The notes below the pieces were generated by a model. The model was not told the origin of the DNA and did no database searches. It was given only the letters and a program-made list of their open reading frames with translations. This document shows, in pieces, positions 8,180 to 25,413 of a stretch of 52,859 bases of DNA. This DNA comes from a virus (lineage: Duplodnaviria; Caudoviricetes): positions 1-52,859 of IMG/VR virus record IMGVR_UViG_3300033489_000012; one strand, 5' to 3'. The position numbers were made by a program, and so were the translations under genes. Each line of letters opens with the position of its first letter. Positions within the stretch are counted from its first letter, which is position 1.

Positions 8180-8189
8180 TCGGAGCTAC

Positions 8190-9224: not shown

Positions 9225-9225
9225 C

Positions 9226-9435
9226 TTGAAAATCGAAATATGCATAGGGAACACGATAAAAAGAGTTGACAAATCCGTGATACCCTATTTACTTTACCTG
9301 TGTGATTCAAGCGAGAAGGAATTGACCGGTAAGACCGCTTTTGAGCTCAACTGGTTCAAGGGCGGGATAACGAATATGAACCGAAACAAAAATCCTCTAT
9401 CTGGGGTGGAGGAAACGGAGAGCGTGAGGTTATGA
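9226..9435 (+). CDS. Small protein, possibly DUF2292/YezD-like
   Basis: 69 aa; TGKxxFELNWxxGGI and C-terminal ExxxRL pattern; resemblance recalled, not searched. Confidence 0.45.
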   Translation: MKIEICIGNTIKRVDKSVIPYLLYLCDSSEKELTGKTAFELNWFKGGITNMNRNKNPLSGVEETESVRL

Positions 9436-9608: not shown

Positions 9609-9612
9609 GATT

Positions 9613-9894: not shown

Positions 9895-9898
9895 GGTT

Positions 9899-10084: not shown

Positions 10085-10099
10085 GGAGAGTGTGAGGCT

Positions 10100-11294: not shown

Positions 11295-11494
11295 AAATCT
11301 TGAAGATTGACAAAGATATGGTGCAGGTGGAGTTGACGAGAGAGGAAATAGAAACCATTAGGGTGGATTTAAGGTGGGGAGATAATAATCTCCCGAAGGA
11401 ACTTGAAGCATTAAAAGAAATGATGGATAGGGGAGTGCGTCTATATTCTGCCACTCCCGGCGGTACTTCAAAATTCCCAAAGGGAATTAATTAA
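11291..11494 (+). CDS. Hypothetical protein
   Basis: GGAG RBS; DMVQVELTREEI resembles the 9432 ORF. Confidence 0.6.
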   Translation: MKILKIDKDMVQVELTREEIETIRVDLRWGDNNLPKELEALKEMMDRGVRLYSATPGGTSKFPKGIN

Positions 11495-11507
11495 AAACTG
11501 AATAAGC

Positions 11508-11525
11508 AGTATCGGACACCGGATA
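11508..11525 (+). repeat. Truncated 5' copy of the conserved late-operon element
   Basis: AGTATCGGACACCGGATA, matching 11824-11841 at 17/18 positions; preceded by AAAACTGAATA as at 15442. Confidence 0.75.
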
Positions 11526-11535
11526 GGAGTATTAA

Positions 11536-11796
11536 ATGATAGAATATATTTGTGATGTCTGTGGGAAAGAAATCAGTGGGCCTGAATTTGCAGATTCAAC
11601 CATTCCTTTCCGTTCCTCGCCGATTGTAATTGAAGTAAAAGCAGAAAAAACACACAGAGTGGCTTTTGATGAATACATGGTAAAGGATCAACCAATTCTT
11701 TACAAAAAAATGCAAGTACATAAAGAGTGTGCAGATAAATTGATTGAAGAGATCGCGGGGGTGCTAAAAAAATACAGGAGAACTAATCATAGATAA
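11536..11796 (+). CDS. Small Zn-binding hypothetical protein
   Basis: CDVCG...HKEC; AGGAG RBS. Confidence 0.65.
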   Translation: MIEYICDVCGKEISGPEFADSTIPFRSSPIVIEVKAEKTHRVAFDEYMVKDQPILYKKMQVHKECADKLIEEIAGVLKKYRRTNHR

Positions 11797-11824
11797 TTAA
11801 TTGGGCATTTAAAAATTTAAGATA

Positions 11825-11888
11825 GTATCGGACACTGGATATAACCCAAGCCGATGTGATGGCAGAAATGTCATTGCATCGGTTTTTT
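11825..11888 (+). promoter_or_regulatory. Conserved antiterminator-like element plus intrinsic terminator (copy 1)
   Basis: GTATCGGACACTGGATATAACCCAAGCCGAT, then hairpin closing ATCGG and TTTTTT. Confidence 0.8.
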
Positions 11889-11916
11889 GTTGGGTAAAAA
11901 TTTAACGGGAGTTTGT

Positions 11917-12186
11917 ATGATAGAAAAAATGTGGTGCCCTATTTGTGGAGATTTTAAAACCCCCTTGTCTAAGATCACATATAAGGCGGGAATACAAGAA
12001 ATACTGGTGGATTGCGGCCACTACATGTATCTCAATCTGCATAATATTTGGAGAATTCATCCGGACGGAGAAAGGTATGCCGAAGCTTCGTTCAAGGAAA
12101 TGTTCGGTCAACCCCTGGAAATTGATGAAGACACCATAATAGAAGCGATTAGGGAAGCGCTAAAAAAGGGGAAACTGGACAAATAA
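11917..12186 (+). CDS. Zn-ribbon hypothetical protein
   Basis: WCPICG...DCGH; GGGAG RBS before ATG 11917. Confidence 0.55.
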   Translation: MIEKMWCPICGDFKTPLSKITYKAGIQEILVDCGHYMYLNLHNIWRIHPDGERYAEASFKEMFGQPLEIDEDTIIEAIREALKKGKLDK

Positions 12187-12189
12187 TTA

Positions 12190-13182
12190 TTGAAAAATAT
12201 GATAAGCACAACTCAAGTTCCAGAAGCGCATCATCATGGCAGGACCTACTTCTGCCTGAATCAGTCCCGGCGGATAGATCCGAGCAGAACCGGCGGAATC
12301 CAGAGGCGGTTCATCACCGAGATCAACAGACGGTTCAACCTGCTCAAAACCGAGATCAAAAAATCGGTTGTGGACAATGACTGTTTCGGACTCCAACCGA
12401 TGATTCATGCTTTAGCCACTGTTCCGGAAAGGGCTTTTGCCTTTGAGACTACGGATGAGAAGATCAAGAAATTTATGGCATGGCTGGAGGAACAGGAAAA
12501 CCTCTACATCCTGTCGGAGGGGCGGGAAGGACTGCTGATCATTATTCGGCCCGGGATAATCAGCGGGAATAAGCCCTGGACCAACATCTTTATCGATTCT
12601 GCCTATTCGCAGGGGATCAAAAGGGCAAGAGAGGAGCTTAGGCGAGCCGGCTATGATATTGCTTCGTTCGAGGCATTTCCCCGGGGGATCGGCGGACTGA
12701 TGAATCAGCCATTTCATGCGGAGCGGGTGGCGGTCATCTATACCAGGACCTTTGAGGATCTCAAAACAGTCACCCAGTTTATGAATGGGCAAACCAGGAG
12801 ATTGATTGCGGATGGTTTGACCACCGGATTGGCACAGGGGATGGCGGAGGGTAAGGGGCCGATGCAAATTGCCCGGGAGCTGGTTAAGGATGTAGCGAAC
12901 CGGGTTGATAAGATCGGGATTACCCGGGCCAGAATGATAGCGCGGACAGAGGTGATGCGGGCGCATCATGTAGCGAATATTGCGGAATATCGGCAGGCAG
13001 AGGCGGAGATGCAGGTTACGGTCGAAGCGGAATGGTTGACGGCGGGATATGATGTCTGCCCGGAGTGCGAGGACTTGGAGAGGAAAGTATTTACACTGGA
13101 TGAAATAGAAGGGATGTTGCCTCGTCACCCTAATTGCCGCTGCGTCGCTAGGCCAGTAGTAAAATCGGAAAAGGAGAAATAA
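12190..13182 (+). CDS. Head morphogenesis protein (MuF / SPP1 gp7 family)
   Basis: RARMIARTE and VCPEC...PRHPNCRC motifs. Confidence 0.92.
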   Translation: MKNMISTTQVPEAHHHGRTYFCLNQSRRIDPSRTGGIQRRFITEINRRFNLLKTEIKKSVVDNDCFGLQPMIHALATVPERAFAFETTDEKIKKFMAWLEEQENLYILSEGREGLLIIIRPGIISGNKPWTNIFIDSAYSQGIKRAREELRRAGYDIASFEAFPRGIGGLMNQPFHAERVAVIYTRTFEDLKTVTQFMNGQTRRLIADGLTTGLAQGMAEGKGPMQIARELVKDVANRVDKIGITRARMIARTEVMRAHHVANIAEYRQAEAEMQVTVEAEWLTAGYDVCPECEDLERKVFTLDEIEGMLPRHPNCRCVARPVVKSEKEK

Positions 13183-13185
13183 ATC

Positions 13186-14922
13186 ATGCCGTATCCACAT
13201 TATCATTCATGCCGATTGAATCCTCCGGGTCGTTACGAGGAATTTACAACAGTATCCCGTTCAACCCATGATACCCACAAGGAATATTCTGTGATTCGAG
13301 GCAGAAAACCTGACGGAAGCTGGGAAGACCAGGCATTCCGTTATCCCCGGGACCGCTGGAGTGCTGACCAGGCACGGCAGCACTGCGCAGCGCATGATGG
13401 TTCATTCGAGGCGGCCAATCCGCAGGCAAACGAAGGAGGAGAAATACTAAGATGGAACACGGCTCATTTTGCCATCAATTTGCCATTAAGACATGAGAAT
13501 TTTGAAGGACGCCCCCATCTGGTGGCTCCAGTGGTGGCGTTGGTAGAGGGAGTGCATAATAATTATTTTTATCCGGCCGAAGAGATAGGGAAATTTGTAA
13601 GCTGCTGGGATGGAGTGCCTCTGCCGGTTTTTCATCCGGAGGATTTTGGAAAAAATGTTACGGCCAACACGCCGGAACTGATTGAGGAGAGATCGGTGGG
13701 AAGATTCTTCCATGCTCAATTTGATCCGGACGGCGGGAAGTTAAAGGGGGAATTGTGGATCGATATTGGGAAGGCGGAAAAGGTATCGCCGGAAGTGTTG
13801 GTATTAATCCAGTCGGGGGGGCAGTTGGAGGTGTCGACGGCGCTTTGGCTGGATGAGGACGGAACACCGGGGATGTGGCATGGGGAGGAATACCAGGCAA
13901 CCGTGATGAATTACAGACCAGATCATATCGCGCTTCTTCCCGGCGGGGAGGGGGCGTGTTCATGGGCGGATGGTTGCGGTGTGCGGGCGAATAAACAAAA
14001 TCAAAAAGGAGGATCGGTGAAAGACGAAAAGGGTGAGGAAAAGAAGGGAAAGTTAAAAGTGCTGATTCAGCAGATCAAAGATTTATTCCGGGAGGAAAAG
14101 CCTGTCCGGATCCAGGTAACCAACGAAATGAGCCACGAGGATCTGCGGACCAAGATTCAAAGGGCATTGGATGCTCTGGATAACCAGGGTTGGGTGCATT
14201 TTGTCTCGGCAATCTACGACAATTTCATCATCTATGAGGCGAGGGGAACCAACCCGAATGAGATCGGGGCTCCGGGCAACCAGCAAGCCGTCAAGCTTTA
14301 CAAACGTGGCTATACCATCGACACGGAAAAGAATATAACCTTAAAGGACGACGTTGAGGAGGTGAGAGAGGTAACCGAGTATGTGCCAGTAACTCAACCA
14401 GCCGGAAATTCAAAGACAAATCAATGCGATAACCCCAAAAAGGAGGTAACTGTGGAGAAAAAGAAAGAACTGATCGACGCCCTCATAAGTTGCAACGGCA
14501 CCCGGTTCGAGGAAAAGGACAGGGAGTGGCTGAACACCCTTGAGGAGGAGCGATTAGAGACTCTGAAGGCGGTGGATCCGCCCAAGGCACCAGACCCGAA
14601 GGTGAACGAGCCGCCGAAGCCGGTGACGGTGGAGGAATTCGTGGGCAATGCCCCGCCGGAGATCCGGAGCATCTTAACCCGGGCGGTCAACCGGGATAAG
14701 GAGATCAAGGCTCAACTGGTGGATGAACTTATGAAGAATGAGCGGAATAAGTTTTCCAGGGAGACATTGGAAGAGAGGGACATTGAGACTCTGGAGAAAC
14801 TTGCTGCTCTCGCCCAGGTGGAGGTGGACTTTTCCGCGGCAAGCGGTGGACCAGCCAGCAACCAGGAGAAAAAAGTCCCGGACATGCCGTCCTCGTATGT
14901 CCCTGCCGCGGCAGTTAAGTAG
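13186..14922 (+). CDS. Prohead protease/scaffold (DUF2213 type) with extra N-terminal domain
   Basis: EVST and PDHIALLPGGEGACSWADGCGVRAN motifs; charged C-terminal scaffold. Confidence 0.85.
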   Translation: MPYPHYHSCRLNPPGRYEEFTTVSRSTHDTHKEYSVIRGRKPDGSWEDQAFRYPRDRWSADQARQHCAAHDGSFEAANPQANEGGEILRWNTAHFAINLPLRHENFEGRPHLVAPVVALVEGVHNNYFYPAEEIGKFVSCWDGVPLPVFHPEDFGKNVTANTPELIEERSVGRFFHAQFDPDGGKLKGELWIDIGKAEKVSPEVLVLIQSGGQLEVSTALWLDEDGTPGMWHGEEYQATVMNYRPDHIALLPGGEGACSWADGCGVRANKQNQKGGSVKDEKGEEKKGKLKVLIQQIKDLFREEKPVRIQVTNEMSHEDLRTKIQRALDALDNQGWVHFVSAIYDNFIIYEARGTNPNEIGAPGNQQAVKLYKRGYTIDTEKNITLKDDVEEVREVTEYVPVTQPAGNSKTNQCDNPKKEVTVEKKKELIDALISCNGTRFEEKDREWLNTLEEERLETLKAVDPPKAPDPKVNEPPKPVTVEEFVGNAPPEIRSILTRAVNRDKEIKAQLVDELMKNERNKFSRETLEERDIETLEKLAALAQVEVDFSAASGGPASNQEKKVPDMPSSYVPAAAVK

Positions 14923-14984
14923 AGAAATCGAGGGGGCAAGGATTAAGAAAGAAGATTTAAAACCTTTAAAATGGGAGAATAACA

Positions 14985-15440
14985 ATGGCTTACAAAAAAG
15001 TAGTGGTTGCGGGGAATCCGAAATACAAGGAGGCCAAAGCCAATGCCGCCATCACCCCGGGTCATCTGGTGGAGCGGATGAGCACCGGAAATGTGCGGGT
15101 GCATGCCACGGGAGGCGGCTCGTGTCAGAAGATGTTTGCCATAGAGGACTCCGGCCGTGGCAAAACCATCGATGATGCGTATGAAGCCGCCCAGCAGGCT
15201 CAACTCGCCATCTGCCAGCCCGGGGATGAAATCTATGCCCTCCTGTACAATGGCGAGCATGCCTACAAGCACTCGCTCCTGGAGTCACAGGGAGACGGAA
15301 CCCTACGGGTGGTGGATGCTGATGCCTCTTGGGGTGCGATAGCACTCAATTCCATCGTTGGGGAGGCATTGGAGGAAGTGGACATGAGCGGGTCGAGCGG
15401 AGAGGATCCCTCAGCCCGGATACTCATCGAGATCTGGTAA
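14985..15440 (+). CDS. Capsid cement/decoration protein
   Basis: AITPGHLV...LLESQGDGTL...IVGEALE; lies between scaffold and capsid genes. Confidence 0.8.
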   Translation: MAYKKVVVAGNPKYKEAKANAAITPGHLVERMSTGNVRVHATGGGSCQKMFAIEDSGRGKTIDDAYEAAQQAQLAICQPGDEIYALLYNGEHAYKHSLLESQGDGTLRVVDADASWGAIALNSIVGEALEEVDMSGSSGEDPSARILIEIW

Positions 15441-15456
15441 TAAAACTGAATAGTTA

Positions 15457-15521
15457 GTTCGGACACTGGATATCAACCAAGCCGATCAGTCCCGCAAAAA
15501 TGCGGGATGGATCGGTTTTTT
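15457..15521 (+). promoter_or_regulatory. Conserved antiterminator-like element plus intrinsic terminator (copy 2)
   Basis: GTTCGGACACTGGATATCAACCAAGCCGAT, hairpin, TTTTTT; immediately upstream of the capsid gene. Confidence 0.8.
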
Positions 15522-15564
15522 GTTACCGGAAACGGAAGGAAAACTTTTAACGAAAGGATGGAAA

Positions 15565-16563
15565 ATGAAAAACAAACTTTTAGGTGCGCAAGTGGAGGCG
15601 GTGGTAAACGGTCGAGCCTTCGGCAGTGTGGCGGAGCGGCTTTTGGCGAACGGGTTCAAGGTGAACGAGTTACGCCAGAACGCTACCACTCTTCGCCACG
15701 AAGAATGGCAATTCTATGATCAGGCCATCGTGGACGCCGCCAGACCAATCCTGGTAGGTGTGAACGACCTGAGCTCACGGGGACTGGTGTTCAATCTGGA
15801 TGGTATGGCTAATAAAATCCTGATGTGGGAGACCGGAAGCGCCAGTGGCGGAGCCCAGATGGGGATGAAACCCAACCTTACTCCCCGGGGAGACAGGAAG
15901 ACCTTCACGCCTCATTATCTACCCTTAGTCTGCACCTTCGACTATTTCAATATCGACATCCGAGATTTGAATTCTAGTCGAAAGGGGACTATGTCCTTAG
16001 ATAAGAGCCAGGCGGCGGACTGCGGCTTCAACGTTGCAGACAAAATCGAGGAGGTGCTTTTCCGGGGCGCCAGTTCCTATAAATTCGGCGATGCCATCAT
16101 CTATGGTTACTGCGATCATCCTGACCGGAATCAAGTGACCTTAGCCACTCAATGGGACGCCTCGGCCGCAACCGGAGCTATAATCGTGGATGATGTGTTG
16201 GCCATGAGACAGGCGCTTCTCGACGATTACCAATACGGACCCTGTGGTCTGTATGTACCCCCGAACTACGCATCCGCCATCGCGGAAGATTATAAGACCT
16301 ACGGCACCATCACCGTAGCCCAGAGGATTGCGGAAATCGAGGGAATAGAGTTCGTCAAGGTGGCGCCGAAACTCGCCGATGACAACGTGGTTTTAGTCCA
16401 GCTCTCGAGCAAAACCGTGGAGATCGTGATCGGGATGGACATCACCAATATCCCGTGGGAATCTCCGGGTGGCTTCGAGCTTAACCAACTGGTGCTTGCC
16501 ATCATGGTGCCGCGGATCAAATCCGATGATGACGGTCGCTGCGGAGTCGCACACTTAGCATAA
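15565..16563 (+). CDS. Major capsid protein (HK97 fold, encapsulin/linocin-like family)
   Basis: TLRHEEWQFYD...GVNDL, IYGYCDHPDR and IMVPRIKSD..GRCGVAH motifs; start moved to ATG 15565, after the terminator. Confidence 0.9.
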   Translation: MKNKLLGAQVEAVVNGRAFGSVAERLLANGFKVNELRQNATTLRHEEWQFYDQAIVDAARPILVGVNDLSSRGLVFNLDGMANKILMWETGSASGGAQMGMKPNLTPRGDRKTFTPHYLPLVCTFDYFNIDIRDLNSSRKGTMSLDKSQAADCGFNVADKIEEVLFRGASSYKFGDAIIYGYCDHPDRNQVTLATQWDASAATGAIIVDDVLAMRQALLDDYQYGPCGLYVPPNYASAIAEDYKTYGTITVAQRIAEIEGIEFVKVAPKLADDNVVLVQLSSKTVEIVIGMDITNIPWESPGGFELNQLVLAIMVPRIKSDDDGRCGVAHLA

Positions 16564-16614
16564 ATTCAAACAGGGGAAACGGTAACCAAACCGAAATTCC
16601 CTAAGGAGGTAATC

Positions 16615-16974
16615 GTGCCCAGATACAGATTGAAAAGCGGTAAACTGATCGTTCGCACAGGAGGCAAAAAGACCGTCTACCGCAAGGGACAGATCGTTAC
16701 CCTGGATCCGTTGCAGGCAAAGCCGTTTTTGGATACATTGGAACAACTTGACCCGGATCCACCTGCGCCACAACCAAAAGCCGGGTTGAAGGCGGTGCAT
16801 GTCGGGGCGGGGAAATACAACGTGGTCAATGAGGCGACAGGGAAGAAAATCAACGATAAACTTCTGACCAAAGAGGCGGCGGCGGCGCTGGTTGAGGCTG
16901 AAACTCCTGAGATTGACCCCGAACTTGGCAAAGGACCGGATCTCGACGTCATCGACCCTCCCGCCGAAGATTAG
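16615..16974 (+). CDS. Hypothetical virion-associated protein
   Basis: Strong AAGGAGGT RBS; directly after the capsid gene. Confidence 0.7.
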   Translation: MPRYRLKSGKLIVRTGGKKTVYRKGQIVTLDPLQAKPFLDTLEQLDPDPPAPQPKAGLKAVHVGAGKYNVVNEATGKKINDKLLTKEAAAALVEAETPEIDPELGKGPDLDVIDPPAED

Positions 16975-17616
16975 GTGATGCGGAATCCCAACCTCTGGGT
17001 GGTCCCAAAGATATGGCAGGGGGGCGAATGCTTCATCCTGGGTGGCGGTCCGAGCCTCAACCGGGTCAATATGGAGCTTTTGAGGAATAAGCGGTGCCTT
17101 GCCGTCAACAATGCCTTTAAGTTGGGCGACTGGATTGATGCAATGTTTTTCGGAGACCTCAATTTCCACCGATGGGAAAAGCACAACCTTCTGAATTTCG
17201 CCGGGCTAAAGGTAACGATTCGGGGAGAACTCATCAATGCGCCGGGAATCAAGGTGATGCGACGGGACAATTCGCCGAATGCGGGGATATCGACCAGGCC
17301 CGGAATATTGAACTGGAATTATAGCTCCGGAGCCTGCGCCATCAATCTGGCCTATCTTTTCGGAGTCAAAAGGATCATCCTGCTGGGGTTTGACATGAAA
17401 ATGGACGGCGGCCGTCACAATTATCATACCGATTACCCGACGGCAAATGATCCTCCGCCCAAAAAGCACGATCCGAACAGCCGGTATACCAGATTTATGA
17501 AACCGTTTCCTGCGATAGCGGAGTCGCTCAAAAGATTGAATGTGGAGTGTTTGAATGCCACGGAAGGAAGCGCGCTGACAGTTTTCCCGATGGTTCGACT
17601 GGAGGATGTGGTATGA
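16975..17616 (+). CDS. MptE-like / DUF115 (Maf-type) glycosyltransferase-related protein
   Basis: ILGGGPSL, LAVNNA and SSGACAINLAYLFGVKRIILLGFD motifs. Confidence 0.75.
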   Translation: MMRNPNLWVVPKIWQGGECFILGGGPSLNRVNMELLRNKRCLAVNNAFKLGDWIDAMFFGDLNFHRWEKHNLLNFAGLKVTIRGELINAPGIKVMRRDNSPNAGISTRPGILNWNYSSGACAINLAYLFGVKRIILLGFDMKMDGGRHNYHTDYPTANDPPPKKHDPNSRYTRFMKPFPAIAESLKRLNVECLNATEGSALTVFPMVRLEDVV

Positions 17617-18323
17617 TCACCATAGCCACCGTGTTCAAGAAAGGTGGGGGGTATGATGTTTCCTATATTATGAAATTGGCGGCAGGAATTGAGGCGAACC
17701 TGAAAACGCCCCATATCTTCATGTGCCTCTCGGATGAATTGGAGAAAAACATTGGTATCAGTGAACTTCCAAATCATTACATCGTACCGCTACGGCATAG
17801 TTGGCCCGGGTGGTGGGCTAAGATGGGGCTCTTTTCACTCCAGGGACCAGCGCTTTACTTTGACTTAGACACGGTGATCACCGGAGCGATTGATGACCTG
17901 GCGAGGTGGATTGTAAATAACCCGGGTCCGCTGGTGATGCTGCGGGGATTTTACCGGGGCGATCAGTGTTCCGGGATCATGGGTTGGAATGGTAATTTAA
18001 CCTGGATTTTTGATCAGTTCCGAATCAATTTTGGCAATCAGGCGGCGTTTCACAAAGAGAGGCAGGGAGTTTCGATGACGGTTGGGAACAAGCGATTCAG
18101 GGGAGACCAGGACTGGTTAAAGGAATTGAGCCGACAGAGATCAGACCAGATAAAAGTCGTCATGGCGCAGGATATTTTTCCGGGAATCTATAGTTATAAG
18201 GTGGACATTCTGCCGAAAGGGAAATTGCCTGCGGATGCAAAAATAATTTGTTTTCATGGTCTTCCGCGACCGGCAGAAATTAAGCCGCAACCGGAATGGT
18301 TGAAGAAGCACTGGGGAGAATGA
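17613..18323 (+). CDS. GT-A fold glycosyltransferase (GT8-like)
   Basis: YFDLD (DxD), GDQDW and IICFHGLPRP motifs; start moved to 17613. Confidence 0.8.
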   Translation: MITIATVFKKGGGYDVSYIMKLAAGIEANLKTPHIFMCLSDELEKNIGISELPNHYIVPLRHSWPGWWAKMGLFSLQGPALYFDLDTVITGAIDDLARWIVNNPGPLVMLRGFYRGDQCSGIMGWNGNLTWIFDQFRINFGNQAAFHKERQGVSMTVGNKRFRGDQDWLKELSRQRSDQIKVVMAQDIFPGIYSYKVDILPKGKLPADAKIICFHGLPRPAEIKPQPEWLKKHWGE

Positions 18324-19636
18324 AATTGATATATCCCGATGATTTTATTAATAGGGCTATCTGCATAGATTGCCGTGGAGGGTTGAAGTTACTGCCGGAT
18401 AATTCCATCTCTGCCTGCATTACCGATCCCCCTTATGAGTTAGGTTTTATGGGTAAGGCATGGGATAAGAAGGGCGTAGCTTATGATGTCGATATGTGGC
18501 GTGAAGTCCTACGGGTCTTGAAACCTGGCGGACACTTACTCTCTTTCGGCGGAAGCAGAACCTATCACCGTATGGCTTGCGCTATTGAGGACGCTGGTTT
18601 TGAGATAAGGGATATGATTGAATGGGTTTACGGATCAGGATTCCCGAAGAGTTTAAATATTAGCAAGGCGATAGATAAAAAGGCAGGGGGGAAAAGGAAA
18701 GTGGTAGGAGTCAATCCAAACTATTGCGAAAACAGAGTGGATAGTATCGGAACGGCAAATGGTATTTATGGTGGTGCGGGACCAGACAAGGGAAAATATA
18801 TTACTGCTCCCCTAACATCCGAAGCCCAACGATGGTCTGGTTGGGGCACTGCTCTCAAGCCCGCACACGAGCCGATTTGCATGGCAAGAAAACCTCTATC
18901 TGAAAAGACCGTTGCCGAGAATGTGTTGAAGTATGGAACAGGGGGGATCAATGTGGATGGATGTAGAGTAGAGACAACAGGGGATGAATTGCCTGAATTA
19001 AATAGGGTTAGTAAACGCCCAGCGGATAAGGCTTCTGGTTTTATGACATCAACAAAGCATACATTTATTCCATCCCAAGGTCGCTTTCCCGCCAACTTAA
19101 TCCACGATGGCTCGGATGAAGTGCTGGCGGAATTTCCATCAACTGAAACACACGAGGGGATATGTCACAAATATAGTGGAACATCAATGTTCGGACTCGG
19201 AGGAGTTGGGAGAAGTCATGCAAATTCCGGCTCTGCCGCCCGATTCTTTTACTGTGCGAAAGCAAGCAAGACGGAAAGAGATATGGGATGTGGAGGGGGA
19301 GAAGAAAAACAAAGAGATGAAGGTCGAAAAAAAGGGAATCCAGGTGGTGATAATCCAAGAAATTGTGGTTTAAATAAAAGAACCAATTACCATCCCACCG
19401 TCAAGCCCCTTGCCCTTATGCGTTACCTGTGCCGATTAGTTACTCCGCCAGGTGGTGTGGTTATTGATCCTTTTGCCGGTTCTGGAAGCACTCTGATTGC
19501 GGCGGCGCAAGAGGGGTTTCAGTTTATAGGGTTTGATGATGTACCCGCTTATGTGGAAATCACAGAGAAAAGATTGAATGCCGTGCCTAAAACTTTGTTT
19601 AACCCGGTTCTTGTGGGAGAATATGGGACAAGATAG
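18320..19636 (+). CDS. DNA N6-adenine/N4-cytosine methyltransferase (beta class)
   Basis: TDPPY, HPTVKP and DPFAGSGST motifs. Confidence 0.92.
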   Translation: MKLIYPDDFINRAICIDCRGGLKLLPDNSISACITDPPYELGFMGKAWDKKGVAYDVDMWREVLRVLKPGGHLLSFGGSRTYHRMACAIEDAGFEIRDMIEWVYGSGFPKSLNISKAIDKKAGGKRKVVGVNPNYCENRVDSIGTANGIYGGAGPDKGKYITAPLTSEAQRWSGWGTALKPAHEPICMARKPLSEKTVAENVLKYGTGGINVDGCRVETTGDELPELNRVSKRPADKASGFMTSTKHTFIPSQGRFPANLIHDGSDEVLAEFPSTETHEGICHKYSGTSMFGLGGVGRSHANSGSAARFFYCAKASKTERDMGCGGGEEKQRDEGRKKGNPGGDNPRNCGLNKRTNYHPTVKPLALMRYLCRLVTPPGGVVIDPFAGSGSTLIAAAQEGFQFIGFDDVPAYVEITEKRLNAVPKTLFNPVLVGEYGTR

Positions 19637-19834
19637 ACTTTTCATATTACATCGACACGATATTGTATTCTGTCTGTATAATGGCGGATTCTGGATTCGT
19701 TTCTGGGGTAGGGGTATTGCCATAATCAATAAAATCAAACACCGCCCGCCTTTCAGTGAAAGACATGGTTACAAGAAAGTATTCAGGATTGGAAGGTATG
19801 GCATTGAATTGTTGGGAAGAAGCTCAAGGGGAGA

Positions 19835-20152
19835 ATGATGGATTTTACTTACTTATTACAACCACCCAAAAGATATACCTTTGAACAACCAAAATTAAAA
19901 CAATGGGTAGAAAAATGGTGTGTGGGGAAGGTTTTGAATCTATTCGCGGGCAAAGTGAAATTAAATGTAGATGAATACAGGGTAGACTTAGATAAAACAA
20001 TGCTGGCGGGGCGGATGGTCCGGACCCCCGAATATGCAACAGACCTAATCGGGCGGTGCGGAGGAAAAGTTGTTTACGTTTCGGACATGACCAAATTTCC
20101 GCAATATAGAAGCGGTTGGTATTATATGAAAGTGGTCAAAGCGGAGGGATGA
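19835..20152 (+). pseudogene. Probable chimeric or truncated methyltransferase-like gene
   Basis: N-terminal half has a VLNLFAG SAM motif but no catalytic part; sequence character changes near 20000. Confidence 0.45.
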
Positions 20153-20448
20153 TGACCAGACCGGTATACGATTATCTGTGCTCGATAGGAGAGCTTTTCG
20201 ATAAACTCTCGATCCAGAACATCGTCTGTTATGACTCCAATACAAAGATTCTGGAGGAGCGCAGTAAGCCCGAGCCGGATGATCATGTAATCAGTCAGCT
20301 CGAGTTTAAGGCACGGACAGCCGGGGAGCAGAGAGTGAGATTGAAGGATGAGATTAACCACCGGCTAAATGAGGCGATTAGGAACGGAGGAATCGGGACG
20401 GCGCCGGAGGTAAGAACCTATAAAATGCCGGGAGAAAAGGATGCCTGA
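20149..20448 (+). CDS. Small helical protein (DUF4254/DUF6165-like)
   Basis: SIGELFDKLSI...RVRLKDEIN pattern, seen beside glycosyltransferase genes. Confidence 0.55.
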   Translation: MMTRPVYDYLCSIGELFDKLSIQNIVCYDSNTKILEERSKPEPDDHVISQLEFKARTAGEQRVRLKDEINHRLNEAIRNGGIGTAPEVRTYKMPGEKDA

Positions 20449-20986
20449 GAGCCAACAGCCACTGGAGGGACAAAGAATAATGACCGAGGATATCCTCTCC
20501 AAACCCGACAGGATTGTTCTTGACGTCGGAGCTGGAAGCGGGAAGTGGGGTCAGCTTCTGCGGGGTAAAGTTATCGGGATAGTTGCTATTGAGGTCTGGC
20601 CGCCATGTGTAGATGTACTTCGTAAGTCCGGGCTTTACGATGAAGTGATTGAAGGAAATATCAGGGGGTTTCAGGATTGGGCGCCATATAATACCGTTAT
20701 CCTGGGAGACATTCTGGAGCATTTCTGCCGAAAAAAAGGAACGCAGCTGGTTGAGACGGTAAGGGGGATTGAAGCAGATGTTTATTTGACCATCCCGATC
20801 TCTCCCTGCCCACAAGATGGCACGGTATACAATAATCCATACGAGACGCACCATGAGCAGTGGACGCATGAGCAGGTGATGGCCTTGGGCTTTAAACCGT
20901 TGCATCGGGGATTCAATGAAGCCGGAACGGTGGAGATAGGAACTTATATTTTAGGGAAGGGTGGAGATGAAAACAGAAGGATATAA
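20441..20986 (+). CDS. Class I SAM-dependent methyltransferase (non-DNA)
   Basis: VLDVGAGSG, GDILEH and NPYETH motifs. Confidence 0.85.
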   Translation: MPESQQPLEGQRIMTEDILSKPDRIVLDVGAGSGKWGQLLRGKVIGIVAIEVWPPCVDVLRKSGLYDEVIEGNIRGFQDWAPYNTVILGDILEHFCRKKGTQLVETVRGIEADVYLTIPISPCPQDGTVYNNPYETHHEQWTHEQVMALGFKPLHRGFNEAGTVEIGTYILGKGGDENRRI

Positions 20987-20991
20987 ATAAA

Positions 20992-22593
20992 ATGAATATT
21001 CCCTGTAGTTGCGGTTCAATGGTCTCACGAGAGGAGGAAAAACAGAATATCCCCGTCCTCGTATGTGAATGTGGCATCATCCGGCAAAAGATAGAGATAA
21101 CGATTGAGGAATTGGAATGCTGGTATCGAAATACATATTATCAAGATGTCTATCGACACTCCTATGATCATGACCGACTGGTGGCCAAGGAACGACTGGA
21201 ACAATATCGAAGAAATGATGTTCTCCTCAAATCTGGAGACATCGTTATTGATATTGGTTCTGGGAACGGGGCTTTTGTCGATATGGCACGAGAGTCAGAT
21301 CTGTCTGCCTATGGTTGTGATATTCATACTAATCACAATAGATGGACCTACAACATGAAACTCAAGGACATTCATTTCCCCAGCAATTATGCATCTCTAA
21401 TCACACTTCACGATTCACTTGAACACATGGTATCCCCACAGGATACTCTCGAGACGGCACAACGCATCCTCAAAAACGAGGGGTGGCTCATAATAGATTT
21501 CCCGGATTTTTTTTCCGAAGACGGAAAACATCATTGGAAAAAGATTGAACATCTTTGGTTCTTCACTGCCGATCAATTGCAATCACTACTCGAACGATAT
21601 GGATTTAAAGTCGTTAAGATTCACAAACCTATCCCATCTAAAATTGTTCTATATGCACAGAAAATTTCTCCAGTACAATCGGCTCGTATCCTGGTGCCCC
21701 CCGGCATAGGAGATATTTACTGGGTGATGTGCAAGTTGCAGTCGTTCCTGGAAGTAAACAACATCAAACTTCCCGAAATATGGATACTAAGCACACAGTC
21801 GGACCGTAACCGATCGCTGGATTATGTCCGTAAAGTACCTTTTGTGATCGCAGGGGGTTATTATGACTGCAAGCAAAAAGACTTACCCGTTTGGCATCAA
21901 GCTTATTTCGAAAATGGTCCAGGTATCTTTAGGAATGTGTTAGGATTCGATTTTTTCTTATCTGCGAACGGACCCTTCCGTTTTAATAAGACCCTTGAAC
22001 AGATTATGCCTAAATATCAAGTTAACTGGTATCCTCCCATCTTTAGTTCTCTCGAAGAGATGGAATATGGTGCTCGATGGCAAGAAAAATCGGGTCCGTT
22101 TATAGTTGCTTTCTTTGTGGAGCATGGAACATACAAGCAATGGCTCGCCGATCTCCCCGTCGAACAGATATTCAATATTCTGCAACAGATCCACCGTACC
22201 ACGGGACATAAAATTATATTGACTGGTGCGGAATGGAATCGTCCTTCTAAGAACAATATTTATGCAAAATTACTGTTACTCGACAGACAACAGTCAAATC
22301 GTTTTTTGATTGACCTGAGCGGGCAGACGACCCTAGAACAATTTTTCGGTCTATTGCGTTCCGCTTCTGGATGTATAGGGTTTTGTGGAGGTAATACTAT
22401 TATGTCGGTTGTATTCAAAAAACCGACGATGATTTTATGGAATAATTATTATCCCGAATCATTTTGGAAAAATTCTTGCCCGCCAGATTCACTCGGACAC
22501 TGGTATTTACCTGTAAGTACAAAATCGGGGGGTAATAACATTGCCAATGAGTTTGTCAACCTTATAGAGAAAAATCCGTCTGTGGGTGAATAA
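20992..22593 (+). CDS. Fusion of class I methyltransferase and GT9 (heptosyltransferase-like) glycosyltransferase
   Basis: IDIGSGNG and DSLEH, then PPGIGDIYW and IDLSGQTTL...LRSASGCIG. Confidence 0.8.
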   Translation: MNIPCSCGSMVSREEEKQNIPVLVCECGIIRQKIEITIEELECWYRNTYYQDVYRHSYDHDRLVAKERLEQYRRNDVLLKSGDIVIDIGSGNGAFVDMARESDLSAYGCDIHTNHNRWTYNMKLKDIHFPSNYASLITLHDSLEHMVSPQDTLETAQRILKNEGWLIIDFPDFFSEDGKHHWKKIEHLWFFTADQLQSLLERYGFKVVKIHKPIPSKIVLYAQKISPVQSARILVPPGIGDIYWVMCKLQSFLEVNNIKLPEIWILSTQSDRNRSLDYVRKVPFVIAGGYYDCKQKDLPVWHQAYFENGPGIFRNVLGFDFFLSANGPFRFNKTLEQIMPKYQVNWYPPIFSSLEEMEYGARWQEKSGPFIVAFFVEHGTYKQWLADLPVEQIFNILQQIHRTTGHKIILTGAEWNRPSKNNIYAKLLLLDRQQSNRFLIDLSGQTTLEQFFGLLRSASGCIGFCGGNTIMSVVFKKPTMILWNNYYPESFWKNSCPPDSLGHWYLPVSTKSGGNNIANEFVNLIEKNPSVGE

Positions 22594-23307
22594 ATGAAAA
22601 AGCCAATTCTCATAACCGGGATGGAGCGGTCGGGGATCTCGCTGATCAGCGAGGTGGTCCAGATCTGCGGAGCATTGAAGGGAACGCCCAATGAAATCCG
22701 GGATCTGTTGGTCAAGCCGTTTCTGCGGGGAATCAAGGCGGATCCGAACGGGCAGTCACCCTTGCCTGATATCGAGATGTGCAAAAAGCTGGCGGATAGT
22801 CTAAAGGATAAGTGGAGACAGAGAGTCGAAGACATATTTTCCATGAATGGATTGTTGAATCTGGAAAATAATTGCTGGTTTTATGCCGATCCGAAGAGCG
22901 TATTGATCTGGCCAATTTGGGTGAGGGCGTTTCCGGAGGCGCGCTGGATCATCGTGCGAAGGAAGGATAATGACATTATCCGGTCGTGCCTGAAGACCGG
23001 TTACATGTCTGCTTATGACGATGCCAAGGGTTGGTGGGGGTGGCTGGAGACTTACAAAAGGCGATTTTCCGAATTGACGGAGAATAAAGAATTGTCTGTC
23101 TGGCAGATCTGGCCGCAACGGATGATTCAGGGGAGACTGGCGGAAGTCAAAGCGATGATTCACTTTTTAGGGTTGGAGTGGAAAGAAAAGGAGATGGACA
23201 ATTTCATAACACCGATTCTATGGAAGGAAGGAATCTTTGAAACTATCGTCGAAGATTCAAACGAGAGGAGCAAAATATGTCAATCCGGGCAAGCGAAGGG
23301 GAAGTAA
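22594..23307 (+). CDS. Sulfotransferase-fold protein
   Basis: ILITGMERSG 5'-PSB-like loop; FPEARWIIVRR motif. Confidence 0.75.
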   Translation: MKKPILITGMERSGISLISEVVQICGALKGTPNEIRDLLVKPFLRGIKADPNGQSPLPDIEMCKKLADSLKDKWRQRVEDIFSMNGLLNLENNCWFYADPKSVLIWPIWVRAFPEARWIIVRRKDNDIIRSCLKTGYMSAYDDAKGWWGWLETYKRRFSELTENKELSVWQIWPQRMIQGRLAEVKAMIHFLGLEWKEKEMDNFITPILWKEGIFETIVEDSNERSKICQSGQAKGK

Positions 23308-23642
23308 AAGCAGTGATCCAGACGGAGCTGACCGAAGAAGAGGTAGTTCCATTCCTGACGACCGCCAATGTAATGGTGACGGACATTTTAAACGACGAAG
23401 GATACGGCGATGCGCTTCTGAAACAGATTGAGATCTATCTGGCGGCTCATTTCGTGGCTATCCGGGATCCGCAGGTGAAGTCGGAGACTATCGGAGAGGT
23501 AGCCACCAGTTATCATGGACAGTCGGGAATGGGCTTGAACTTCACTCCGTACGGGCAACAGGTGCTGCTTCTGGACCATCACGGCGTATTTGCACGGATC
23601 CAGGAGACGAAACGGCAGGCAGAGATAAAGGCATTGGGATGA
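23277..23642 (+). CDS. Head-tail adaptor (DUF4054-like)
   Basis: YLAAHF and TPYGQQ motifs; synteny. Confidence 0.8.
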   Translation: MSIRASEGEVKAVIQTELTEEEVVPFLTTANVMVTDILNDEGYGDALLKQIEIYLAAHFVAIRDPQVKSETIGEVATSYHGQSGMGLNFTPYGQQVLLLDHHGVFARIQETKRQAEIKALG

Positions 23643-23986
23643 GCCCGAGCAGATCGAGCAATTTTACCAGGAATTTAAAGCAGACTGCCACCTACTGGGG
23701 GAACCCGGTTTCGGATGGTTACGGTGGCAGGAACTTTGACGCCCCGGTAGAAATTGATGTTCGCTGGGAGGACAAACAGGAATTGTTTACCGATACGAGC
23801 GGCCAGGAAAAATTATCCCGGGCGGTTGTCTTTGTCGGAGAAGACGTCCAGGTGGGGGGTTATCTTTTTCTAGGATCATCATCGGCGGGGAATCCGCTGG
23901 ATGTGTCGGGAGCATACGAGATTAAGCAATTCAGCAAGATCCCGGATCTCAAAGCGGAGAATTTTTTGAGGAAGATATGGCTGTAA
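23639..23986 (+). CDS. Head closure protein
   Basis: QTATYW...DGYGG motif; synteny. Confidence 0.75.
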   Translation: MSPSRSSNFTRNLKQTATYWGNPVSDGYGGRNFDAPVEIDVRWEDKQELFTDTSGQEKLSRAVVFVGEDVQVGGYLFLGSSSAGNPLDVSGAYEIKQFSKIPDLKAENFLRKIWL

Positions 23987-24408
23987 GCAAATGGCAGGGA
24001 TATAGCGTCAATATAACCGGGCTGGATCAGGTATTGGCTAATTTGAATAAGGAGGTGCGGAAAATCCAGGATCGGACCAAGGCGGGATTGTGGGAAGCAC
24101 TTTTGAAAGTTAAGTACGATGTCCTTCCTCTAACGCCGATTAAACATGGGCATCTTCGGGGTTCTTGTTATACAATTCCCGGACCAGCGGGCAAACAAGT
24201 CGCTGAACATCCGGAGCCAATTAAAACTTCTTCGGGAATTGCGGGAGAGATAGGTTTTACTGCCACCTATGCACCATTTGTGCACGAGATTGATAAGCAT
24301 TATACCGTCGGGGCGTGGAAGTTTTTGGAGAGAGCGTTAAAAATGAATTATGACAAAATACTCGACATCATCCGGCGCAGGGCGCATGTGGATACGGGGA
24401 GGGATTAG
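23977..24408 (+). CDS. Neck protein (HK97 gp10-like)
   Basis: TPIKHGHLRGS, YAPFVHE and KFLERAL motifs. Confidence 0.85.
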   Translation: MAVSKWQGYSVNITGLDQVLANLNKEVRKIQDRTKAGLWEALLKVKYDVLPLTPIKHGHLRGSCYTIPGPAGKQVAEHPEPIKTSSGIAGEIGFTATYAPFVHEIDKHYTVGAWKFLERALKMNYDKILDIIRRRAHVDTGRD

Positions 24409-24410
24409 AG

Positions 24411-24806
24411 ATGAATGCTCCGAGTATGGACATTAAAGATTTGTTGGATGGTGAGTCCTCCCTGGGGTTGACCTTCGGGACGGATCTATTCGTTTCCGAA
24501 ATGCCCCCGATTCCAGATTTGTGTGTTTGCGTTTACGATACGGGAGGAGAACCACCCAACCCTGACTATGACTATATGAAGCCGACCATTCAAGTACGAA
24601 TTCGGGGGGATAAGGGGGAATACCGGGCGGCTTACGATCTGGCCTTGTCAATACAGAATTTTTTGAACGGAATGCATAATGAAGAGGTAAATGGGACGCG
24701 ATACATTGGGATTTGGGCGGAGGGGGATGTCTTTTTCATAGGATACGATGAAAACCACAGGCCGGAATTGACCGTTAATTTTCGGTTGCACAGAACGACT
24801 GCTTAA
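24411..24806 (+). CDS. Tail terminator protein
   Basis: PTIQVRIRG and DENHRPELTVNF motifs. Confidence 0.8.
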   Translation: MNAPSMDIKDLLDGESSLGLTFGTDLFVSEMPPIPDLCVCVYDTGGEPPNPDYDYMKPTIQVRIRGDKGEYRAAYDLALSIQNFLNGMHNEEVNGTRYIGIWAEGDVFFIGYDENHRPELTVNFRLHRTTA

Positions 24807-24898
24807 CAGTTTTGAGTAGAGAGTTAAGGGTGCGGAGGAAAAGAAAGGAGAGAATATAGAGTTAAGAGTTTAGAGTAAAGAGGACAAAATCTATAGTA

Positions 24899-24963
24899 GT
24901 ATCGGACACCGGAAATAACCCGAGCCGATTCGCTTCCCATACGGGAGGCGGGTCGGCTTTTTT
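24899..24963 (+). promoter_or_regulatory. Conserved antiterminator-like element plus intrinsic terminator (copy 3)
   Basis: GTATCGGACACCGGAAATAACCCGAGCCGAT, hairpin, TTTTTT; immediately upstream of the tail tube gene. Confidence 0.8.
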
Positions 24964-24996
24964 GTTGGAAAACAATCTAACGAATGGAGGCACAAA

Positions 24997-25413
24997 ATGT
25001 CAGATGCAATTGCAGCAACAGAAACACAATTTAAACGTGGTGATGGAGCTTCTCCGGAAGTTTTCACGCACATAGGCGAGGTAATCACTGTCCCGTTACC
25101 CAATTTGGACAGTGAGGAGATTGATGTAACCCACCTGAATTCTCCGAGTCAAGCCAGGGAGTATCTCCTGGGATTCAAAGATTCGGGTATACTTGAACTG
25201 CCAATGAATTTCGTCCGGACAGATTACGAAGTTCTTTTGGACGACTACGATACCCAAGATATCCACAACTACCAGATTGTATTGTCGGACGAAACCACCT
25301 TTGAATTCGCGGGTTATGTCAAGGGTCTGGGTGGAGAAGCCGGAACCGGGAAGCAGGTAACTGCTACAGTGCGCATAAGAATTACGGGGGGTGTGGAATT
25401 AGTCTCCGCATAA
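24997..25413 (+). CDS. Major tail tube protein
   Basis: IDVTHLNS...EYLLGFKDSG and FAGYV...IRITG motifs (lambda gpV-like family). Confidence 0.9.
   Translation: MSDAIAATETQFKRGDGASPEVFTHIGEVITVPLPNLDSEEIDVTHLNSPSQAREYLLGFKDSGILELPMNFVRTDYEVLLDDYDTQDIHNYQIVLSDETTFEFAGYVKGLGGEAGTGKQVTATVRIRITGGVELVSA

What the first reader, a model, noticed from the sequence alone, without database searches (positions are those of the whole stretch)
11494..24963. Repeated, covarying RNA switch overlapping terminators before the head, capsid and tail-tube genes: candidate new phage antitermination system
Seen: three full copies (11825-11888, 15457-15521, 24899-24963) and one truncated copy (11508-11525) of GT(A)TCGG-ACAC-YGG-N7-CCR-AG-CCGAT. 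The inner stem covaries (TGG/CCA in two copies, CGG/CCG in the third). The 3' CCGA(T) can pair either with the upstream (A)TCGG or with the 3' arm of a strong hairpin followed by TTTTTTGTT, and these pairings are mutually exclusive. The terminator interiors differ while the upstream 30 nt are conserved. Two copies are preceded by AAAACTGAATA. Known: this geometry matches protein-bound antiterminators such as the BglG/SacY RAT. Inference: the terminators sit before essential genes and I see no lambda Q- or N-like gene, so a trans factor probably stabilises the upstream hairpin to allow late transcription.
Basis: partly seen in the sequence, partly recalled or inferred. Interest (0 to 1): 0.88.

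Follow-up and report, generated by a model that had tools for sequence, protein, structure and literature searches.

The report
Phage terminator switch and partner protein
A short RNA hairpin that competes with a strong transcription stop signal is repeated before the head and tail genes of an uncultured soil phage and always travels with one tiny unknown protein, which points to a new way for phages to time their late genes.

Summary
The window is a whole temperate-phage record. It holds three full copies and one 5' half copy of the motif (0 of 100 shuffles reach this).

Each full copy is a 27-nt hairpin. P1 is TCGG/CCGA, followed by a 4x2 internal loop and a stem P2. Its 3' strand is also the foot of a strong intrinsic terminator (-20 to -28 kcal/mol).

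I found 15 distinct full copies in 10 viral contigs, plus one doubtful copy (L318) kept in the alignment.
- P2 covaries: 4 of 4 pairs show double changes, and 0 of 500 shuffles match the score.
- TCGG, CCGA and the terminator's 3' TCGG never change.
- Hairpin and terminator come and go as one unit, always on the gene strand, 15-40 nt before portal, protease, capsid or tail-tube genes.
- Rfam has no match.

New here: a basic protein family of 53-87 aa (SP; window 9226-9435) with no Pfam, PHROG or fold match. It occurs in every contig of 7 kb or more with a bona fide element except the 9.3-kb fragment G005, and in none of about 137 element-free loci. It is the only protein the window shares with the most distant carriers.

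Best reading (about 0.55): SP stabilises the weak hairpin and disables the terminator. This works like BglG/RAT but is not a member of that family. There are no expression data, so function is inferred.

The parts
9226..9435 (+). SP gene (69 aa, TTG start behind GAAGGGGTGG, stop overlaps next ATG): candidate trans factor
   Evidence: Translation, sequence. Family of 28 clusters and 73 representatives. pI is 8.0-10.1 in 28 of 28 members. It co-occurs with the element. No Pfam or PHROG match.
11494..11527 (+). Truncated copy: box AAAACTGAATA + TATCGGACACCGGATA. It lacks the 3' strand and the terminator and is fused to the RBS/ATG of ORF 11536-11796
   Evidence: Weak CM match, 19.8 bits. Same arrangement in G001 and L195.
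11828..11854 (+). Copy 1 hairpin: P1 TCGG (11828-31)/CCGA (11851-54), loop ACAC, P2 TGG/CCA, loop ATATAAC, AG
11851..11891 (+). Copy 1 intrinsic terminator (stem 11851-11882, -19.7 to -20.3 kcal/mol) and U-tract 11883-11891
15442..15453 (+). Box AAAACTGAATAG before copy 2 (clade-specific; stop codons in all three frames)
15459..15485 (+). Copy 2 hairpin: TCGG/CCGA, ACAC, TGG/CCA, loop ATATCAA, AG
15482..15524 (+). Copy 2 terminator (stem 15482-15515, -23.4 to -24.0 kcal/mol) and U-tract
   Evidence: The simple scanner missed it because of an internal mismatch.
24902..24928 (+). Copy 3 hairpin: TCGG/CCGA, ACAC, CGG/CCG (compensated), loop AAATAAC, AG
24924..24966 (+). Copy 3 terminator (stem 24924-24957, -28.3 kcal/mol, with G-U pairs valid only on this strand) and U-tract
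11917..14922 (+). Genes behind copy 1: small ORF 11917-12186, Mu F-like head morphogenesis 12190-13182, scaffold/protease-like 13186-14922
15565..16563 (+). Major capsid protein gene behind copy 2
24997..25413 (+). Major tail (tube) protein gene behind copy 3
   Evidence: phrog_158, E 3.8e-20

Best explanation
The repeat is a two-part transcription switch of phage late operons.

How it works (proposed)
- In the nascent RNA a weak 27-nt hairpin forms: P1 UCGG/CCGA, an asymmetric internal loop A-N-A-N / (A or C)G, a variable P2 and a variable loop.
- The hairpin shares its 3' strand (G)CCGA(U) with the foot of a strong intrinsic terminator.
- Left alone, the terminator wins and RNA polymerase stops 15-40 nt before the next structural gene.
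- A phage-made factor, most likely the basic 53-87-aa protein SP encoded upstream in the same operon, binds the P1/internal-loop region and holds CCGA in the hairpin.
- The terminator then loses its 4-6 bottom pairs, its remaining stem no longer reaches the U-tract, and polymerase reads on.
- Because SP is made from the promoter-proximal part of the late operon, the switches would delay or gate expression of scaffold/protease, capsid and tail genes. They would also keep these genes silent in the lysogen.

Shown: the structure, its covariation, the shared strand, the terminator strength, the positions and the SP co-occurrence.

Inferred: termination, read-through, RNA binding by SP and the timing role.
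For: 1. Repeat is real: 3 matches against 0.00 expected.

2. Energetics.
- The three elements hold the strongest gene-strand terminators inside the 36-kb late block.
- With flanks they fold at -32 to -41 kcal/mol, z -4.3 to -6.8, and 0 of 200 shuffles fold as well.
- The upstream hairpin alone is only -2 to -9 kcal/mol. A weak antiterminator with a strong terminator is what factor-dependent switches show (recalled general knowledge).

3. Relatives.
- There are 15 distinct full copies in 10 viral contigs: window x3, G001/G002, L195, G005, G003/G006, G004 x2, L299 x2, L308 x2, L311 and L314. L318 is a further, doubtful copy.
- The 15-row alignment holds 14 of these copies (not L195) plus L318.
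- On this MAFFT alignment, not fitted to any structure, all 4 P2 pairs show changes on both sides. That is 20 cells, 93.3% of cells paired, 0 of 500 shuffles reaching the covariation score, and 23-51% paired when the partner is slid by 1-3 columns.
- RNAalifold predicts the same P1+P2 by itself.
- At least 10 different P2 helices occur.

4. Invariant shared strand.
- TCGG, CCGA and the terminator's 3' TCGG are identical in 15 of 15 rows, while terminator tops differ freely.
- No variant foot exists among all strong gene-strand terminators of the SP-bearing contigs.

5. RNA-level, sense-strand features.
- There are G-U pairs in the stems and a U-tract on one side only.
- All copies share the orientation of the flanking genes and lie just upstream of a start codon.

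6. One unit. Orthologous intergenic regions of G003/G004 that lack the hairpin also lack any terminator.

7. SP.
- The HMM hits 5 ORFs, all in element-bearing loci, and none in the 77 element-free capsid-related loci.
- Starting instead from the element pattern, SP is found in L314 (2e-18), L299 (1e-6), L311 (3e-5) and L308 (9e-4), and in none of the about 60 chance loci.
- SP is the only window ORF that hits L299/L308. These phages have other portal and terminase families.
- SP always lies upstream on the same strand, 54 nt to 2.4 kb from an element.
- G004 has two paralogues, each before one element.
- pI is 8.0-10.1 in 28 of 28 members.

8. No known antiterminator family in 51 window ORFs. 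No Rfam match, even at E<=10, over the two stretches searched.
Against: - No RNA data exist: the only listed runs are DNA of one soil sample. So neither termination nor read-through has been seen.
- P1 never varies, so its pairing is not supported by covariation. My pattern scans required TCGG/CCGA, which biases the sample.
- The hairpin alone does not fold better than shuffles (z -1.0 to -2.1; 6-35 of 200 shuffles fold as well).
- The sample is small: 10 contigs, perhaps 6-7 independent lineages. The shuffle control ignores relatedness.
- SP has no detectable RNA-binding domain, no fold match, and only a marginal profile match to the uS17 beta-hairpin (E 0.0034).
- In the window the SP gene is 2.4 kb from the nearest element.
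- G005, L195 and L318 show no SP in the sequence held. The first two are fragments of 9.3 and 1.2 kb; for L318 only 14 of 59 kb is held.
- The 5' half alone is conserved in front of small ORFs in three phages. A pure hairpin model does not explain this.
- Terminators before the most abundant virion proteins are counter-intuitive unless read-through is efficient.
Confidence: 0.55

Rival explanations
1. Processive, nut-like loading site. The linear box plus hairpin recruits SP (and host Nus-type factors) onto RNA polymerase, which then ignores terminators in general. Local competition for CCGA would not be the mechanism.
For: - A linear conserved box lies 5 nt before the hairpin in one clade.
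- SP is a small basic protein.
- There are several sites per genome.
- Small phage proteins are known to make RNAP terminator-resistant: Xp10 p7 and P23-45 gp39 (abstracts in the listing).
Against: - Every site sits directly on its own terminator and shares 4-6 nt with it, invariantly. A processive system needs one site per operon and no overlap.
- The box is absent in L299, L308 and L311.
- Hairpin loops are not conserved, unlike boxB (recalled).
Confidence: 0.15
2. The switch is real, but the factor is not SP. It would be a host protein, another phage protein or a small ligand. SP would be a linked passenger gene of the same mobile cassette.
For: - SP has no recognisable RNA-binding fold.
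- Its distance to the element varies from 54 nt to 2.4 kb.
- Co-occurrence could reflect joint transfer.
Against: - SP is the only protein shared by otherwise unrelated carriers.
- Both directions of the association test came out clean.
- A 27-nt hairpin with a variable loop is small for a ligand pocket.
- No other ORF tracks the element.
Confidence: 0.1
3. Passive module. A constitutive terminator with an extra 5' hairpin serves as operon insulator, 3'-end stabiliser or processing site, and as a recombination linker between gene cassettes. Read-through would not be regulated.
For: - The distribution among related phages is patchy.
- The element is present in the otherwise unrelated G001.
- Truncated copies flank different small ORFs, like moron cassettes.
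- Multi-frame stop codons lie upstream.
Against: - Unregulated strong terminators before scaffold, capsid and tail-tube genes with no promoter behind them would starve essential genes.
- Invariance of the 5' TCGG, which mirrors the terminator's 3' foot, has no role in this model.
- Covariation shows selection on the hairpin.
Confidence: 0.12
4. DNA-level site. The box plus TCGG...CCGA inverted repeat is a late promoter or operator bound by SP as a DNA-binding activator. Transcripts would start inside the terminator stem, so the terminator stops only upstream transcription.
For: - The 5' half with the box is conserved alone before ORFs.
- TCGG/CCGA is a fixed inverted repeat.
- A weak sigma-70-like match ends at 24897, before copy 3.
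Against: - P2 keeps pairing through at least 10 different sequences with varying stem and loop lengths. A promoter spacer has no need for that.
- Half-site spacing varies over 17-21 nt.
- The box is missing in three carriers.
- No consistent -10 with T at -7 was found (my reading).
- Promoter-like hits in the region are no more frequent than in shuffles.
Confidence: 0.08

Closest known systems
BglG/SacY/LicT antiterminators with their RAT RNA (recalled knowledge)
   Same: A roughly 29-nt imperfect hairpin with asymmetric internal loops overlaps the 5' arm of an intrinsic terminator by a few nucleotides. The hairpin is too weak alone and is stabilised by a small RNA-binding module of about 55 aa. 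Several targets exist per genome.
   Different: No CAT or PRD domain in SP or in 51 window ORFs (Pfam). The sequence is unrelated. The system is phage-encoded, sits in late structural operons and has no sugar-PTS link. SP is modelled as helix plus three strands, not the all-beta CAT fold (recalled).
Lambda N with nut sites (boxA + boxB), and HK022 put RNA (recalled knowledge)
   Same: A phage RNA element, or an RNA element plus a small basic protein, that overcomes terminators. One clade has a linear box followed by a hairpin.
   Different: Those systems are processive, lie far upstream of terminators and have conserved loops (boxB) or two stem-loops (put). Here each site overlaps its own terminator, the loops vary, and no Rfam or Pfam match was found.
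Lambda-type Q antiterminators at the late promoter (abstract of PMC7547250 seen in the listing; rest recalled)
   Same: A terminator just before late genes is overcome by a phage factor, and the short terminated RNA is the default product.
   Different: Q binds DNA at one promoter. Here there are 1-3 sites inside operons, the RNA covaries, and no Q family was found.
Small RNAP-binding phage antiterminators: Xp10 p7 and P23-45 gp39 (abstracts in the listing)
   Same: Proteins of about 7 kDa from phages that suppress intrinsic termination.
   Different: They act on RNA polymerase without a dedicated RNA site. No sequence or fold link to SP was found.
TRAP, PyrR and ribosomal-protein leaders (attenuation by RNA-binding proteins; listing plus recall)
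   Same: A protein decides between alternative antiterminator and terminator pairings. The same protein can also act at ribosome-binding sites, which could explain the truncated copies.
   Different: In those systems the protein promotes termination. Here the default must be termination and the factor must prevent it.

Membership tests
BglG/SacY-RAT antitermination | Antiterminator hairpin overlapping the terminator's 5' arm | tested here: met
   CCGA(T) is shared by both structures in 15 of 15 aligned cores
BglG/SacY-RAT antitermination | CAT RNA-binding domain followed by PRD domains in the regulator | tested here: not met
   No such Pfam family at E<=1 in 5 SP members or at E<=0.01 in 51 window ORFs
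BglG/SacY-RAT antitermination | RAT consensus sequence | not testable with these tools
   I saw no RAT model among the Rfam results. The consensus is only recalled and was not typed.
Lambda N / nut | boxB hairpin with conserved loop, N-type arginine-rich protein, site remote from terminators | tested here: not met
   Loops vary in length and sequence. Each site abuts its terminator. No N family in Pfam scans.
HK022 put and other Rfam cis-antiterminator RNAs | Match to the family covariance model | tested here: not met
   0 matches at gathering score in the whole window. No match on the elements at E<=10 over 11400-12000 and 24800-25050. Copy 2 was covered only.
Q-type antiterminators | Q protein family; single site at the late promoter | tested here: not met
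   No Q family in 51 ORFs. The record is about 85% complete, so a gene in the missing part cannot be excluded. Three sites lie inside the operon.
ANTAR targets | Two tandem hexaloop hairpins; ANTAR-domain protein | tested here: not met
   Single hairpin with loops of 3-7 nt. No ANTAR domain in Pfam scans.
Intrinsic (factor-independent) terminator | G+C-rich hairpin directly followed by a U-tract | tested here: met
   Stems of -16 to -35 kcal/mol followed by 5-7 U in all copies
DUF2292/YezD (PF10055) for SP | Match to the Pfam model | tested here: not met
   Only an atlas lead at 0.82 with 30% of members. No Pfam hit in 5 SP members or in 10 remote relatives.

The most novel reading that the evidence does not exclude
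A portable two-component antitermination cassette. A protein of about 57 aa from a new family reads a 27-nt hairpin and thereby disables the intrinsic terminator fused to it. The cassette has spread among unrelated tailed phages and multiplied inside late operons, where it acts as a staged timer of virion gene expression. It would be the first phage-encoded RAT-type (local, hairpin-stabilising) antiterminator and a very compact orthogonal switch.
Probability: 0.45. Interest if true: 0.85.

Novelty: new variant of a known kind. Interest (0 to 1): 0.78.

Why it matters
Late-gene control in tailed phages is understood for only a few models: Q, N, sigma factors and activators.

A local hairpin-versus-terminator switch, driven by a tiny phage protein and repeated inside the structural operon, would add a new regulatory logic. 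It would provide staged gating within one operon and tight silencing in the lysogen.

It would also give a function to an orphan protein family and define a new RNA family absent from Rfam.

Because RNA and protein together are under 300 nt, the pair would be attractive as an orthogonal transcription switch.

It also shows how regulatory cassettes move between unrelated phages.

Tried and rejected
- **Known phages.** Megablast of 11400-25100 against GenBank phages gave no match.
- **Single-protein locus scans.** Scans with the capsid and tail-tube proteins found no relative. The capsid alignment was needed instead.
- **Genome collection.** The genome-contig scan gave 74 stretches. All were G+C-rich coding chance hits and none was real, so no host was found.
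- **Mis-specified box pattern.** The box pattern was off by one base and missed known copies, but it happened to find L202.
- **RNA evidence.** No RNA holder is listed. The two listed runs are DNA from one soil sample, which may be the source of this record.
- **SP fold.**
  - The first AlphaFold model had pLDDT 63. The second, of P0053, had pLDDT 79.
  - Foldseek against PDB gave no match at E<=0.001 for either model.
  - VIA wide gave a best Z of 5.0, within the noise range stated by the tool.
- **SP family leads.**
  - The DUF2292 lead from the atlas was not borne out. A paper search for DUF2292/YezD gave nothing functional (listing only).
  - The profile match to uS17 (E 0.0034 and 0.037) is too weak to build on.
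  - No longer or fused SP forms were found, which the tool calls weak evidence.
  - No SP was found in 50,697 GenBank phage records.
  - SP-pattern scans of viral contigs only re-found G001, G002 and G004.
- **Uninformative calls.** (profile against profile of two SP alignments) told nothing new. ORFs 11536-11796 and 11917-12186 are not significantly alike (E 0.16 and 0.23).
- **Ribosome-mediated attenuation: rejected.** The distance from the upstream stop codon to TCGG ranges from 16 to about 95 nt (my reading).
- **K-turn reading of the internal loop: rejected.** The loop does not fit the pattern as I recall it.
- **rrn-leader lead: not tested.** I recalled a resemblance of the box to rrn-leader boxA-type sequences. 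Sequence from memory may not be entered, so it remains an untested lead.
- **SP subtype against internal-loop variant.** I looked for a correspondence, but L314 breaks the pattern, so I make no claim.
- **Literature.** Three keyword searches (listings with titles and abstract starts only, no paper read) showed no description of such a system. That is not proof that none is in print.
- **Not used.** Complex prediction was not used, because no protein-protein claim is made.
- **Rows dropped before counts.**
  - Chance pattern hits (L233, L253; about 55 loci).
  - The window hit at 52096 (-).
  - Duplicates L007/L185/L200 = L070 and L204 = L203.
  - L195 was left out of A11.
  - L301 and L336/L339/L348 were left out as unclear.
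  - L318 was kept in A11 although doubtful.

Full report
**What the window is.** The window is a complete IMG/VR virus record of 52,859 bp, linear and estimated 85% complete.
- Gene content is that of a temperate tailed phage:
  - terS 382-852, terL 849-2231, portal 2607-3992
  - a block of unknown genes at 3967-11796
  - Mu F-like protein 12190-13182, scaffold/protease-like 13186-14922, decoration 14985-15440
  - major capsid 15565-16563, major tail protein 24997-25413
  - integrase 37941-38960 (-), CI-like S24 repressor 39599-40282 (-), Cro-like HTH 40423-40647 (+)
  - Gam and several DNA methyltransferases
- All genes from 382 to about 36.2 kb lie on the + strand.
- It comes from a soil metagenome, and no RNA run holds it.
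- It has no close relative among 50,697 GenBank phages.

**The observation.**
- They are far beyond chance: 3 matches against 0.00 expected, with 0 of 100 shuffles reaching 3. For the 14-mer there are 5 matches, with 0 of 100 shuffles reaching 5.
- Each full copy reads TCGG-ACAC-YGG-N7-CCR-AG-CCGA(T).
- The same CCGA(T) starts a long hairpin that ends in (A/G)TCGG and TTTTTTGTT.
- These hairpins are the strongest gene-strand terminators inside the late block.
- With flanks they fold at -32 to -41 kcal/mol, z -4.3 to -6.8.
- The upstream hairpin alone is only -5.8 to -8.0 kcal/mol and is not better than shuffles.
- The 28-nt cores are 23-26 of 28 identical between copies, while the terminator interiors are near random.

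**Relatives.** Pattern scans of the viral, metagenome and genome collections were checked by eye for the terminator. I also ran a covariance model (R1) over 86 sources, including 80 loci related through the capsid protein.
- Together these gave 15 distinct full copies in 10 viral contigs.
- The genome collection gave 0 real hits of 74.
- The element stands before:

| Gene downstream | Copies |
|---|---|
| Portal | L299a, L311 |
| Head protease or scaffold | L314, G003, G004 |
| Mu F operon and capsid gene | window |
| Major tail gene | window, G004, G005 |
| Endonuclease VII | G001 |

- It is always on the gene strand, 15-40 nt before the start codon.
- L299, L308 and L311 have portal and terminase families different from the window's.
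- Within the capsid-related clade the element is patchy. The complete genome G003 has one copy, G004 has two and the window has three.
- Where the hairpin is missing in the orthologous intergenic region, the terminator is missing too. The two parts behave as one unit.

**Structure.**
- A MAFFT alignment of 15 cores (A11) was not fitted to any structure. It holds 14 of the 15 bona fide copies (L195 was left out) plus the doubtful L318.
- On it, all four P2 pairs change on both sides: 20 cells, pair types GC, CG, UA and AU, and 93.3% of cells paired.
- 0 of 500 shuffles reach the covariation score. Pairing falls to 23-51% when the 3' partners are slid by 1-3 columns.
- RNAalifold predicts the same two helices.
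- At least ten different P2 helices occur, with loops of 3-7 nt. The stem matters, not its sequence.
- P1 (UCGG/CCGA), the A after UCGG, the G before CCGA and the terminator's 3' UCGG are invariant in all 15 rows.
- This invariance says nothing for or against P1 pairing, and my patterns demanded these letters.
- However, a scan of every strong gene-strand terminator in the SP-bearing contigs found no variant foot.
- G-U pairs in the stems and one-sided U-tracts fit an RNA of the sense strand.
- Rfam has nothing: 0 matches at gathering score in the whole window, and nothing on the elements at E<=10 over the stretches holding copies 1 and 3.

**The partner protein.** Comparing the element-bearing contigs turned up a small ORF, SP. 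It is at window 9226-9435, 69 aa, with a good RBS.
- Homologues lie upstream of the element on the same strand:
  - in G001
  - in G003, where the stop codon is 54 nt before TCGG
  - twice in G004, one paralogue before each element
- An SP HMM hit only element-bearing loci and none of the 77 element-free capsid-related loci.
- The reverse test started from the element pattern alone. It found SP in L314, L299, L311 and L308, and in none of the about 60 chance loci.
- SP is the only window ORF with a relative in L299/L308.
- The family is small: 28 clusters in 5.8 billion and 73 representatives in 1.84 billion.
- It is basic, with pI 8.0-10.1 in 28 of 28 members.
- It has no Pfam, PHROG or fold match.
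- It is modelled as one helix plus three strands at pLDDT 79.
- It has only a marginal profile match to the uS17 beta-hairpin.

**Mechanism.**
- A weak antiterminator that shares 4-6 nt with a strong terminator is the layout of protein-dependent antitermination, as in BglG/SacY-RAT (recalled).
- The simplest model is that SP binds the P1/internal-loop region and holds CCGA. The shortened terminator stem then no longer reaches the U-tract.
- SP is encoded promoter-proximal, so the switches could gate scaffold, capsid and tail genes in sequence and silence them in the lysogen.
- These steps are inferred.

**Rivals.**
- A processive nut-like site. Against it: every site overlaps its own terminator.
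- A factor other than SP.
- A passive insulator or recombination linker. Against it: essential genes would starve, and the 5' TCGG would have no role.
- A DNA promoter or operator. Against it: P2 covaries, the spacing varies over 17-21 nt, and the box is absent in three carriers.

**Unexplained.**
- The AAAAyTrAATAG box is confined to one clade. In 9 of 15 copies the 30 nt before TCGG carry stops in all three frames, so it may act as a ribosome barrier.
- Half copies (box plus 5' strand) are fused to the RBS of different small ORFs 200-320 nt upstream of a full copy in the window, G001 and L195. They may be scars of cassette insertion or second targets for translational control.

**Novelty.**
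- No Rfam or Pfam family, no cultured phage and no paper in three keyword searches (listings only) matches this.
- It works like RAT-type antitermination but fails that family's defining protein feature.
- I file it as a new variant of a known kind.

Noticed in passing
window 11494-11527; G001 (L070 3050-3081); L195 972-1007: 5' half copies of the element (box + TATCGGA...) are fused to the RBS and ATG of unrelated small ORFs. Each lies 200-320 nt upstream of a full copy. The pattern looks like moron-type cassette insertion within the hairpin loop, or like a second (translational) target.
   Followed up: partly
window 11798-11827, 15429-15458 and upstream of 13 other copies: In 9 of 15 copies the 30 nt before TCGG carry stop codons in all three frames, against 0.9% of random window 30-mers (a mostly coding background, so the contrast is overstated). 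This may be a ribosome barrier before the RNA switch.
   Followed up: partly
window 142-161, 214-250, 260-355; also 52834-52859: A plain terminator (142-161) is followed by a TTGACA promoter-like site and a structured leader. The leader holds a second hairpin (GCCCCAGCG...CGCTGGGGC + TTCGTTGTTT) just before terS. A similar TTGACA-type site is cut by the end of the record. G003 likewise has a plain terminator about 320 nt before terS.
   Followed up: no
window 18296-19636; 48570-49568; 51545-52204: There are three DNA methyltransferase genes. One (446 aa, phrog_67) sits in the middle of the structural gene block, and parts of it are shared with G001, G003 and G004.
   Followed up: no
window 3967-11796: About 8 kb of small genes of unknown function lies between portal and Mu F. 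It includes a CxxCxxCC protein (3967-4422) and the SP gene. This is unusual for a head module.
   Followed up: partly
window 849-2231: The closest large terminases among named phages are from Methanoculleus viruses (48%) and Rhizobium phages (47-48%). The host of this phage stays unknown. The strong Shine-Dalgarno sites, the TTGACA sites and the S24 repressor indicate a bacterium.
   Followed up: no
G004 (L205 6656-6829 and 18191-18445): One phage carries two SP paralogues of different subfamilies, each upstream of one element. The two elements have different 3' internal loops (CG and AG). This hints at matched specificities, but L314 breaks the pattern.
   Followed up: partly
window 15526-15564 and G003 19975-19991: The AACGAAAGGA leader before the capsid start codon is conserved with G003. 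The conserved TAACGRR after the terminators is therefore, at least for copy 2, the native 5' UTR of the capsid gene and not part of the element.
   Followed up: yes
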